DNA of 64,000 nt from Escherichia coli (lineage in GTDB: Bacteria; Pseudomonadota; Gammaproteobacteria; Enterobacterales; Enterobacteriaceae): assembly GCF_009931435.1 (NCBI RefSeq), contig NZ_CP043414.1; one strand, given 5' to 3'. Positions 56,181-56,210 of the stretch are shown here, piece after piece (within the stretch, counting starts at the first letter, position 1; each line of letters opens with the position of its first letter). A model generated the notes under the pieces. It did no database searches, had not been told where the DNA came from, and saw only the letters and a program-made list of their open reading frames with translations. A program made the translations under genes and the position numbers.

Positions 56181-56210
56181 TTTCACCGACCAGTTAGCTG
56201 GTCGGTGAAA
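56181..56210. terminator. Perfect 13-bp stem-loop between convergent yfcO and smrB
   Basis: tttcaccgaccag-ttag-ctggtcggtgaaa; no U-tract on either strand, so terminator function is inferred from position only. Confidence 0.4.

What the first reader, a model, noticed from the sequence alone, without database searches (positions are those of the whole stretch)
56181..56210. Perfect 13-bp palindrome without U-tract between convergent yfcO and smrB
tttcaccgaccag-ttag-ctggtcggtgaaa is a perfect inverted repeat lying between the 3' ends of two convergent genes. With no poly-U on either strand it may be an RNase-protective 3' stem-loop or a protein-binding site rather than an intrinsic terminator.
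Basis: seen in the sequence. Interest (0 to 1): 0.15.

Follow-up and report, generated by a model that had tools for sequence, protein, structure and literature searches.

The report
Shared 3'-end hairpin between yfcO and smrB
This is a real, strongly folding hairpin in the tiny gap between a fimbrial adhesin gene and the smrB gene that most likely caps and protects the ends of their messenger RNAs, which is an ordinary and already described kind of bacterial element.

Summary
The inverted repeat is real and one pair longer than reported: 14+4+14 nt at 56180-56211. It is the only feature in the 57-nt gap between a yfcO-family adhesin gene (+) and smrB (-). It folds at about -25 kcal/mol on either strand and has no U-tract on either side. 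It is single-copy and has no Rfam match.

Comparative data argue for an RNA structure, not a sequence-specific site:
- A diverged homologue, in roughly 560 E. coli genomes by identity band, keeps all 14 pairs despite 8 stem substitutions: 3 compensatory pairs and 2 G.U pairs that form only in yfcO-sense RNA.
- Other yfcO alleles carry unrelated hairpins or REP elements at the same spot.

Published K-12 3'-end maps place the ends of both the yfcO and smrB transcripts 6-9 nt past K-12's own U-tract-less hairpin. They also show a Rho-termination region about 150 nt downstream on the yfcO strand. In this window, a C-rich, G-poor stretch follows the hairpin on that strand.

Best reading: a 3'-end-defining, exonuclease-blocking stem-loop of the Dar & Sorek 2018 class. 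The main rival is the collision-type bidirectional terminator class of Ju and Wang. No RNA data exist for this allele. It is a new member of a known kind, of low interest.

The parts
56180..56193 (.). Left arm of the inverted repeat (CTTTCACCGACCAG). It is the 5' half of the stem in yfcO-sense RNA.
56194..56197 (.). Loop, TTAG (CUAA in smrB-sense RNA). It reads ATAA in strain 2017-02-2CC, where the stem is unchanged.
56198..56211 (.). Right arm of the inverted repeat (CTGGTCGGTGAAAG).
55330..56172 (+). yfcO-family fimbrial adhesin gene, the last gene of the yfc chaperone-usher operon. Its stop codon lies 7 nt before the stem.
   Evidence: (PF11245, 4e-77)
56230..56781 (-). smrB (endonuclease SmrB), convergent with yfcO. 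Its stop codon lies 18 nt from the stem.
   Evidence: NF003432, 2e-94
56238..56315 (+). C-rich, G-poor stretch just downstream of the hairpin in yfcO-sense RNA (antisense to the smrB 3' end). C/G is 2.15, against a window 95th percentile of 1.75. It is a candidate Rho-utilisation region; this is an inference.
   Evidence: By analogy, a Rho-termination region at MG1655 2449036(-) in PMC7815308 Supplementary file 2.
56217..56220 (+). Predicted mature 3' end of yfcO-sense RNA, 6-9 nt past the stem. Inference only, not measured.
   Evidence: By analogy with the K-12 ends at 2449185 and 2449183, which lie 6-8 nt past the K-12 stem.
56171..56174 (-). Predicted mature 3' end of smrB-sense RNA, 6-9 nt past the stem. 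Inference only, not measured.
   Evidence: By analogy with the K-12 smrB end at 2449221, 9 nt past the K-12 stem-loop.

Best explanation
The palindrome encodes a stable RNA stem-loop that sits at, and defines, the mature 3' end of the yfc fimbrial-operon transcript. Because it is a perfect palindrome in a 57-nt gap, it also forms in the convergent smrB transcript.

It is not a canonical intrinsic terminator. The proposed mechanism is as follows. RNA polymerase coming from yfcO transcribes through the hairpin into untranslated antisense-smrB RNA. Rho loads on the C-rich, G-poor stretch just downstream and stops transcription diffusely. The 3'-to-5' exonucleases (PNPase, RNase II) then trim back until the stem blocks them, leaving a precise, protected end a few nucleotides past the stem.

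What is shown here: the structure, its position, the missing U-tract, the C>G bias downstream, and evolutionary maintenance of pairing.
What is shown only for the non-homologous K-12 counterpart: 3' ends at the hairpin on both strands, and Rho dependence downstream on the yfcO strand.
What is inferred: that this allele behaves in the same way.
For: Structure and position:
- A stable hairpin forms on both strands (-24.6 and -25.0 kcal/mol, z -6.6 and -7.7). There is no U-tract.

Selection acts on pairing, not on sequence:
- The R6/ST131-type homologue differs at 8 of 28 stem positions, yet all 14 pairs hold. Three are compensatory and two are G.U (3 of 500 shuffles reach the observed values).
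- The chance that 8 random substitutions keep every pair is 1e-4 to 1.5e-3.
- Loop and flanks vary while the stem does not.

The strand under selection appears to be yfcO-sense:
- All four G.U pairs, found in three independent hairpin types (R6; STLEFF_47 L011; strain 165 L019), pair only in yfcO-sense RNA.

The position is conserved while the sequence is not:
- K-12, ATCC 25922, STLEFF_47 and strain 165 have unrelated GC-rich hairpins 10-25 nt after the yfcO stop (7 nt in this window and in R6). O157, SCU-105 and EC11 have REP elements there.
- Where the intergenic gap is long, the hairpin stays next to yfcO, and the smrB-proximal part is unstructured.

Experimental data for the K-12 counterpart:
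- A Term-seq 3' end at 2449185(-) is classed as primary for yfcO and lies 6 nt past the stem, with tail AUUACC (PMC7815308 Supplementary file 1).
- TRS termini are at 2449183(-) for yfcO and 2449221(+) for smrB. The two 3'UTRs overlap by 39 nt, centred on the hairpin (PMC10687069).
- A Rho-termination region at 2449036(-) has Rho score 2.73, p = 5.8e-7 (PMC7815308 Supplementary file 2).

Fit to the published class:
- Dar & Sorek 2018 describe stable stem-loops without U-tracts, with C>G downstream, that protect against PNPase and RNase II; 24% of them are REPs (PMC6061677).
- In this window C/G is 2.15 just downstream on the + strand, between the window's 95th and 99th percentiles.
Against: - There is no transcript-end, Rho-dependence or exonuclease data for this allele or this lineage. 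The K-12 evidence comes from a non-homologous hairpin.
- The covariation rests essentially on one divergence event (window-type versus R6-type). Four of four G.U polarity is only p of about 0.06.
- The C>G bias is present only on the yfcO-sense side. On the smrB-sense side C/G is about 1.2, and no Rho region is listed for that strand in K-12, so how smrB transcripts stop is unexplained.
- Within its own lineage the hairpin is invariant and travels with the smrB side behind at least three different yfcO alleles. That says nothing either way about which transcript it serves.
- yfcO is a pseudogene in some carriers: IS2-disrupted in 2EC1 and carrying an internal stop in MFDS1022581. Current selection through the yfc mRNA may therefore be weak.
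Confidence: 0.6

Rival explanations
1. Collision-type overlapping bidirectional terminator. In this model the hairpin acts mainly as a pause or trap for RNA polymerase arriving from either gene. Head-on collisions, plus collisions from trailing polymerases, then release the transcripts at a fixed place. The process is independent of Rho and of a U-tract.
For: - Ju et al. 2019, as summarised by Wang et al., describe a prevalent E. coli class between convergent genes. These elements do not resemble intrinsic terminators and do not depend on Rho, and their RNA hairpin is needed to position the collisions (bioRxiv 10.1101/2022.10.23.513370).
- The element here lies between convergent genes and folds equally well on both strands.
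- In K-12 the two mapped 3' ends overlap by 39 nt across the hairpin.
- smrB-yfcO is listed in the MG1655 convergent 'excludome' (PMC12288877).
Against: - The model works best for highly expressed gene pairs. In K-12 both genes are weakly expressed: CDS read-start densities are about 0.06 for yfcO and about 0.2 for smrB.
- A Rho-termination region does exist downstream on the yfcO strand in K-12.
- The G.U polarity and the hairpin staying next to yfcO in long intergenic regions point to one strand rather than a symmetric function.
Confidence: 0.2
2. Weak, non-canonical intrinsic terminator. In this model the strong 14-bp stem alone, with a U-poor tail, causes some factor-assisted release of RNA polymerase on one or both strands.
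For: - The hairpin is very stable and partly GC-rich (8 G-C pairs).
- The K-12 ends lie 6-9 nt past the stem, the usual distance for intrinsic termination.
- The K-12 smrB-sense tail is moderately U-rich (UGGUGUAUCU).
Against: - Here the tails have only 3-4 U in the first 9-10 nt and no run longer than two U. T-tail scores are 1.29 and 1.15, and the scan gives no hit at the hairpin.
- The stem base has the reverse polarity, U-rich on the 5' side and A-rich on the 3' side.
- From general knowledge, not tested here: E. coli RNA polymerase needs a U-tract for efficient intrinsic termination.
Confidence: 0.1
3. DNA-level element: either a palindromic binding site for a dimeric protein, or a recombination boundary for exchange of yfcO allele cassettes.
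For: - The window-type sequence has perfect dyad symmetry over 32 bp.
- As single-stranded DNA it would also fold, at -17.2 kcal/mol.
- Homology between yfcO alleles of this lineage switches from about 75% to 100% exactly at the 5' edge of the stem.
Against: - The R6-type homologue breaks DNA symmetry at two positions (GGTC versus GACC) while keeping RNA pairing through G.U.
- Other alleles have completely unrelated sequences at this site.
- The loop and spacer vary.
- There is only one copy per genome and none elsewhere, so no regulon-like distribution exists.
- A sharp homology edge is what purifying selection on a stem next to a hypervariable gene would produce anyway.
Confidence: 0.05
4. 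A functionless palindrome, arising by chance or as the relic of a mobile or repeat element.
For: yfcO is a pseudogene in some carriers, so the locus is partly decaying.
Against: - A perfect palindrome of this size is not expected by chance.
- It is single-copy and matches no REP or IS sequence.
- Pairing is maintained across about 29% stem divergence.
- Functional analogues occupy the same site in every allele examined.
Confidence: 0.03

Closest known systems
3' stem-loops that protect Rho-terminated transcripts (Dar & Sorek 2018, NAR, PMC6061677; earlier proposed for REP elements by Peters et al. 2012)
   Same: It is an energetically stable stem-loop at the end of a transcription unit. It has no U-rich tail and no upstream A-tract. 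C>G-biased sequence lies immediately downstream on the yfcO-sense strand. The K-12 counterpart at the same locus has a precise 3' end just past the stem and a Rho-termination region downstream.
   Different: The sequence is not homologous to any characterised example. It lies in a very short 57-nt gap, so the same stem must also form in the convergent smrB RNA. Rho dependence and exonuclease trimming were not measured for this allele.
Overlapping bidirectional terminators between convergent genes (Ju, Li & Liu 2019; Wang et al. 2022/2023, collision model)
   Same: It lies between convergent genes and is a hairpin-encoding element without intrinsic-terminator features. In K-12 the mapped 3' ends of the two transcripts overlap across the hairpin.
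   Different: That class is described as Rho-independent and most effective for highly expressed pairs. Here the K-12 counterpart shows a Rho region downstream and both genes are weakly expressed. G.U polarity points to one strand.
REP (repetitive extragenic palindromic) elements acting as 3'UTR stabilisers and partial Rho-dependent terminators
   Same: REPs occupy exactly this yfcO-smrB gap in O157:H7, SCU-105, E118, 7CC and EC11. They have the dual stabiliser-terminator role proposed here (bioRxiv 10.64898/2026.03.23.713779).
   Different: This hairpin is single-copy, lacks the REP consensus, and is a perfect 14-bp stem without the REP internal mismatch.
Canonical bidirectional intrinsic terminator, for example 41110-41141 in this same window
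   Same: Both are perfect palindromes between convergent ORFs.
   Different: The site at 41110 is AAAAAAGGTGAGT-CGCAAA-ACTCACCTTTTTT, with an A-tract upstream and a T-tract downstream on both strands. The yfcO/smrB hairpin has the opposite polarity (CTTTC...GAAAG) and no U-tract.

Membership tests
Rho-dependent-transcript 3' protective stem-loop (Dar & Sorek class) | Energetically stable stem-loop at the end of the transcription unit | tested here: met
   The hairpin folds at -24.6 and -25.0 kcal/mol, z -6.6 and -7.7. It begins 7 nt after the yfcO stop and 18 nt after the smrB stop.
Rho-dependent-transcript 3' protective stem-loop (Dar & Sorek class) | No uridine-rich tail and no upstream A-tract | tested here: met
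   The tails are UGCAUGUUG and AUUAACAUU, with T-tail scores of 1.29 and 1.15. The terminator scan is negative at the hairpin.
Rho-dependent-transcript 3' protective stem-loop (Dar & Sorek class) | C-over-G enrichment (rut-like) immediately downstream | tested here: inconclusive
   Met on the yfcO-sense strand: C/G is 2.15 at +26 to +104, against a background 95th percentile of 1.75. Not met on the smrB-sense strand, where C/G is about 1.2.
Rho-dependent-transcript 3' protective stem-loop (Dar & Sorek class) | Steady-state RNA 3' end immediately downstream of the stem | not testable with these tools
   No RNA data exist for this allele. The K-12 counterpart has ends 6-9 nt past its stem on both strands (PMC7815308; PMC10687069).
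Rho-dependent-transcript 3' protective stem-loop (Dar & Sorek class) | Read-through on Rho inhibition, and 3' extension in pnp or rnb mutants | not testable with these tools
   K-12 only: a Rho-termination region at 2449036(-), score 2.73, p = 5.8e-7. No exonuclease-mutant data were found for this locus.
Canonical intrinsic (Rho-independent) terminator | GC-rich stem-loop followed directly by a U-tract | tested here: not met
   The stem is present but there is no U-tract on either strand.
Overlapping bidirectional (collision-type) terminator | Hairpin-encoding element between convergent genes, transcribed from both sides, with overlapping 3' ends | tested here: inconclusive
   The convergent position and the symmetric fold are met. 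Overlapping 3' ends are shown only for K-12, where the overlap is 39 nt.
Overlapping bidirectional (collision-type) terminator | Independence from Rho; dependence on convergent transcription | not testable with these tools
   K-12 shows a Rho region downstream on the yfcO strand, which argues against this weakly. No promoter-deletion data are available.
REP element | Dispersed multi-copy family with the REP consensus | tested here: not met
   There is one locus per genome, in 21 of 5,426 genomes. No other species representative carries it. The sequence is unlike the REPs found at this site in O157 and SCU-105.
Palindromic protein-binding operator | DNA dyad symmetry and sequence conserved among orthologous sites | tested here: not met
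   Symmetry is broken at two positions in the R6-type homologue while RNA pairing is kept. Other alleles carry unrelated sequences at this site.
Rfam RNA families | Match to a curated covariance model | tested here: not met
   No relevant match was found, even at an E-value limit of 10, in 55000-57500.

The most novel reading that the evidence does not exclude
The hairpin could be a U-tract-independent, Rho-independent positioning element for head-on RNA polymerase collisions. It would make yfc-fimbrial and smrB (ribosome-rescue nuclease) expression mutually exclusive, an 'excludon', with each yfcO allele carrying its own version of the device.
Probability: 0.07. Interest if true: 0.4.

Novelty: new member of a known kind. 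Interest (0 to 1): 0.1.

Why it matters
It matters little beyond annotation. It adds one more example, in a divergent Escherichia lineage, of a U-tract-less 3' stem-loop that marks transcript ends between convergent genes. The locus does illustrate one point neatly: the function, a stable 3' structure directly after yfcO, is conserved while the sequence is replaced wholesale between alleles by unrelated hairpins or REP elements. That makes it a convenient natural series for testing how such structures set mRNA ends and stability. It is also a caution that terminator predictors which require a U-tract will leave this gene pair without any annotated 3' signal.

Tried and rejected
- Rfam scan at a permissive threshold over 55000-57500: only three weak, irrelevant hits, none on the hairpin.
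- Consensus terminator and promoter scan: nothing at the hairpin. One weak promoter-like site at 56178-56150 (-) is at chance level, 3 found against 3.6 expected.
- Dispersed-repeat idea: the 10-nt stem core has 8 near-matches in the window against 2.7 expected, but apart from the two arms the only exact copy is inside prmB. A 44-nt query finds a single locus per genome; the '2 places' reported are the palindrome matching itself on both strands.
- Degenerate hairpin pattern against 100,044 species genomes: one chance hit inside a high-GC coding region of a Clostridia MAG (L012), and one R6-type locus in a contig labelled Citrobacter sp. (L013).
- Metagenome scan anchored on the 3' flank: 5 contigs, all with an invariant stem, so no extra covariation was gained.
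- My early idea that the hairpin type follows the yfcO allele was only partly right. Within this lineage the same hairpin sits behind at least three yfcO alleles.
- My early idea that the smrB allele is a special recombinant was wrong. The whole window is 90-95% identical to typical E. coli.
- Dar & Sorek supplementary tables are not held. The TERMITe supplements do not mention the genes. Ju et al. 2019 is not held.
- NCBIfam has no model for the YfcO-like protein. Pfam DUF2544 does match it.

Full report
OBSERVATION

The reported palindrome exists and is slightly longer than stated. The arms are 56180-56193 (CTTTCACCGACCAG) and 56198-56211 (CTGGTCGGTGAAAG): 14 nt each, perfectly complementary, with loop TTAG.

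It is the only feature in a 57-nt gap between two convergent genes:
- An ORF at 55330-56172 (+) matches Pfam DUF2544 at 4e-77. RefSeq annotates it as 'StfH/YfcO family fimbrial adhesin' in near-identical genomes. A Fimbrial-family ORF precedes it.
- smrB lies at 56230-56781 (-) and matches NCBIfam NF003432 at 2e-94.

As RNA the hairpin alone is worth -24.6 kcal/mol on the + strand and -25.0 on the - strand. Z-scores are -6.6 and -7.7, and none of 200 shuffles folds as well. Perfect hairpins with arms of at least 14 nt occur twice in the 64-kb window and never in 30 first-order Markov simulations.

Neither strand has a U-tract. The tails are UGCAUGUUG (+) and AUUAACAUU (-), with T-tail scores of 1.29 and 1.15, and the terminator scan finds nothing at the hairpin. 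The base of the stem is 5'-CUUUC...GAAAG-3' on both strands. That is the opposite polarity to a bidirectional intrinsic terminator such as the one at 41110-41141 in this same window (AAAAAAGGTGAGT-CGCAAA-ACTCACCTTTTTT). Rfam has no match.

WHERE THE WINDOW COMES FROM

A 3-kb stretch of housekeeping genes (60000-63000) and the yfdX region are 90-95% identical to about 5,400 of 5,426 complete 'E. coli' genomes. They are more than 95% identical to only about 20. I infer that the window belongs to a divergent Escherichia lineage that is deposited under the name E. coli.

The 21 genomes that carry this exact hairpin type overlap the few genomes that are more than 95% identical to the window, for example RMDEC465, Z0117EC0005, 2013C-4282 and 2020CK-00188. 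The closest, strain 2EC1, is 99% identical over the locus.

The element is single-copy per genome. The '2 places' reported are the palindrome matching itself on both strands. A degenerate pattern covering the hairpin family found no other species among 100,044 species-representative genomes. The only hits were a chance match in a high-GC MAG and an R6-type locus in a contig labelled Citrobacter sp..

COMPARATIVE EVIDENCE

Within its lineage:
- Within the lineage and in five metagenome contigs anchored outside the stem, 13 of the 14 pairs never change. The outermost pair (C56180-G56211) is lost as a Watson-Crick pair behind the other two yfcO alleles.
- By contrast the loop differs in one strain (ATAA instead of TTAG), and the 5' flank and the yfcO allele vary, with at least three alleles seen.

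A diverged homologue:
- The 60-80% identity band holds 559 E. coli genomes, and every sampled row in it is this type, including R6 and the ST131 strain JJ1886. I take that count as approximate.
- It differs at 8 of 28 stem positions and 3 of 4 loop positions, and its 3' flank is unrelated.
- All 14 pairs are nevertheless kept: three by changes on both sides (C-G to U-A, U-A to C-G, A-U to U-A) and two as G.U.
- Only 3 of 500 column shuffles reach the observed values. All slid registers drop to 26-51% paired.
- Eight random substitutions would keep every pair with probability 1e-4 to 1.5e-3.
- The two G.U pairs exist only in yfcO-sense RNA. In smrB-sense RNA they become a 2x2 internal loop.

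Other yfcO alleles carry something different at the same place:
- Unrelated GC-rich hairpins in K-12, ATCC 25922, STLEFF_47 and strain 165.
- One or two REP elements in O157:H7, SCU-105, E118, 7CC and EC11.
- The STLEFF_47 and strain 165 hairpins each contain one wobble pair that again forms only in yfcO-sense RNA. In total, four of four wobble pairs have that polarity, which is suggestive (p of about 0.06).
- Where the gap is long (115 nt in STLEFF_47, 319 nt in ATCC 25922), the hairpin stays 10-25 nt from the yfcO stop. The smrB-proximal part is no more structured than shuffled sequence.

Taken together, this is the signature of selection for a stable RNA structure at the 3' end of the yfc operon, not for a particular sequence.

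EXPERIMENTAL EVIDENCE FROM THE K-12 COUNTERPART

It exists for MG1655, whose hairpin (GGCAGGGGC-ATTC-GCCCCTGCC, 2449191-2449212) is not homologous to this one but lies in the same gap and also lacks a U-tract.

- Adams et al. 2021 (PMC7815308, Supplementary file 1; the row lies after the start of the M63 0.4 sheet) list a Term-seq 3' end at 2449185(-), classed as primary for yfcO and antisense to smrB. Using the CDS coordinates given in PMC10687069, I place this end 6 nt past the stem, with tail AUUACC.
- Their Supplementary file 2 lists a Rho-termination region at 2449036(-), antisense to smrB. Rho score is 2.73 and p = 5.8e-7. That is 149 nt further along the yfcO strand.
- The TRS study (PMC10687069, Supplementary Data 2-4) reports a primary yfcO terminus at 2449183(-) and a primary smrB terminus at 2449221(+). 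The 3'UTRs are 46 and 65 nt. The two transcripts therefore overlap by 39 nt centred on the hairpin, and each ends 6-9 nt past it.
- ExcludonFinder lists smrB-yfcO among the convergent pairs with overlapping transcription in at least half of 58 MG1655 transcriptomes (PMC12288877).

MECHANISM

Dar & Sorek 2018 (PMC6061677) showed several things about Rho-terminated E. coli transcripts:
- They have precise steady-state 3' ends immediately after stable stem-loops.
- Those stem-loops lack U-rich tails and upstream A-tracts and are followed by C>G-biased sequence.
- The ends arise because PNPase and RNase II trim back to the stem.
- 24% of such structures are REPs.

The element here has every sequence-level feature of that class on the yfcO-sense strand, including C/G = 2.15 in the 78 nt starting 26 nt after the stem, between the window's 95th and 99th percentiles. 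That stretch is the antisense of the G-rich smrB C-terminal codons and is largely conserved in K-12, where the Rho region maps.

I therefore think the hairpin defines and protects the 3' end of yfc-operon RNA after Rho-dependent termination downstream. Being a perfect palindrome in a 57-nt gap, it also caps smrB mRNA. I put confidence in this at about 0.6.

It is general knowledge, not tested here, that PNPase and RNase II stall several nucleotides 3' of a stable stem. That fits the 6-9 nt tails seen in K-12.

RIVAL EXPLANATIONS

- Collision-type bidirectional terminator (confidence about 0.2). This is the Ju/Wang class of overlapping bidirectional terminators between convergent genes. They also lack intrinsic-terminator features, are described as Rho-independent, and use the hairpin to position head-on polymerase collisions. 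The overlapping K-12 ends fit. The low expression of both genes, the Rho region downstream and the one-sided wobble polarity fit less well.
- Weak non-canonical intrinsic terminator (about 0.1). The missing U-tract disfavours it.
- DNA-level protein-binding site (about 0.05). It is disfavoured because the homologue breaks dyad symmetry while keeping RNA pairing, and because other alleles have unrelated sequences.
- Chance or relic (about 0.03). The statistics and the maintained pairing argue against it.

LIMITS

- No RNA data exist for this allele.
- The covariation comes essentially from one divergence event.
- What ends smrB-sense transcription is unexplained: there is no C>G bias on that strand and no Rho region listed for it in K-12.
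- yfcO is disrupted in some carriers.

VERDICT

This is a new member of a well-described kind of element and is of low interest.

Noticed in passing
window 14982-15018: A second perfect inverted repeat, with 15-nt arms and a 7-nt loop (TTTTATGACCACAAT-ACGACCG-ATTGTGGTCATAAAA). It is AT-rich and lies 55 nt after the yfdX stop (14927), upstream of frc. The + strand tail is TTATTTGG (T-tail score 2.92), so it may be the yfdX terminator or a binding site.
   Followed up: partly
window 41110-41141: A textbook bidirectional intrinsic terminator (AAAAAAGGTGAGT-CGCAAA-ACTCACCTTTTTT) lies between the convergent ORFs 40345-41100 (+) and 41282-42481 (-). It is a useful internal contrast to the yfcO/smrB hairpin.
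   Followed up: partly
whole window (sampled at 14900-15100 and 60000-63000): The window is only 90-95% identical to about 5,400 complete E. coli genomes and more than 95% identical to about 20. It therefore comes from a divergent Escherichia lineage deposited as E. coli, possibly a cryptic clade. No complete genome matched at 100% over the 600-nt and 3-kb queries I used.
   Followed up: partly
window 55330-56172; L001, L007: yfcO is decaying in close relatives. It is interrupted by IS2 in strain 2EC1 and has an internal stop in MFDS1022581. It is intact in the window.
   Followed up: no
window 54700-56230 compared with L003, L002, L004, L005: The yfc fimbrial genes are hypervariable between strains: yfcO is 30-70% identical to K-12 per 100 nt. 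The last 50 nt or so of yfcO are conserved (88-94%), and homology breaks sharply at the stop codon. Flanking smrB and prmB are 85-100% identical. This pattern suggests long-standing allelic diversity at the adhesin.
   Followed up: partly
L006 (strain 2017-02-2CC), positions equivalent to window 56194-56197: The loop reads ATAA instead of TTAG, with the stem unchanged. ATAA is one change away from the reverse complement of TTAG (CTAA), so a loop flip plus one mutation is as parsimonious as two point changes.
   Followed up: no
L013 (DXKH01000007.1, labelled 'Citrobacter sp.' MAG): This 4.1-kb contig carries the E. coli R6/ST131-type yfcO-hairpin-smrB locus, identical in sequence over the gap. 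It is probably a mis-binned E. coli contig.
   Followed up: no
K-12 MG1655 2449148 (+), equivalent to about window 56239 (-): TRS Supplementary Data 4 lists a transcription start site (from Thomason et al. 2015) at 2449148, 10 nt before the smrB stop. That is 73 nt upstream of the smrB 3' terminus at 2449221. It hints at a short, roughly 74-nt RNA ending at the K-12 hairpin. Whether the window keeps that start site was not examined.
   Followed up: no
L004 (ATCC 25922) 1188-1506; L019 (strain 165) 543-953: Some strains have extra sequence between yfcO and smrB. Strain 165 has a hypothetical gene (WP_001206999.1) convergent with yfcO. ATCC 25922 has a 319-nt gap that may be a remnant of that gene.
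   Followed up: no
K-12 data in PMC10687069 Supplementary Data 4: Read-start density in the yfcO 3'UTR (0.46, 0.61, 0.17) is several-fold higher than in the yfcO CDS (about 0.06-0.07). This is consistent with a stable hairpin-containing 3' fragment outliving the body of the mRNA, or with contribution from another RNA.
   Followed up: no
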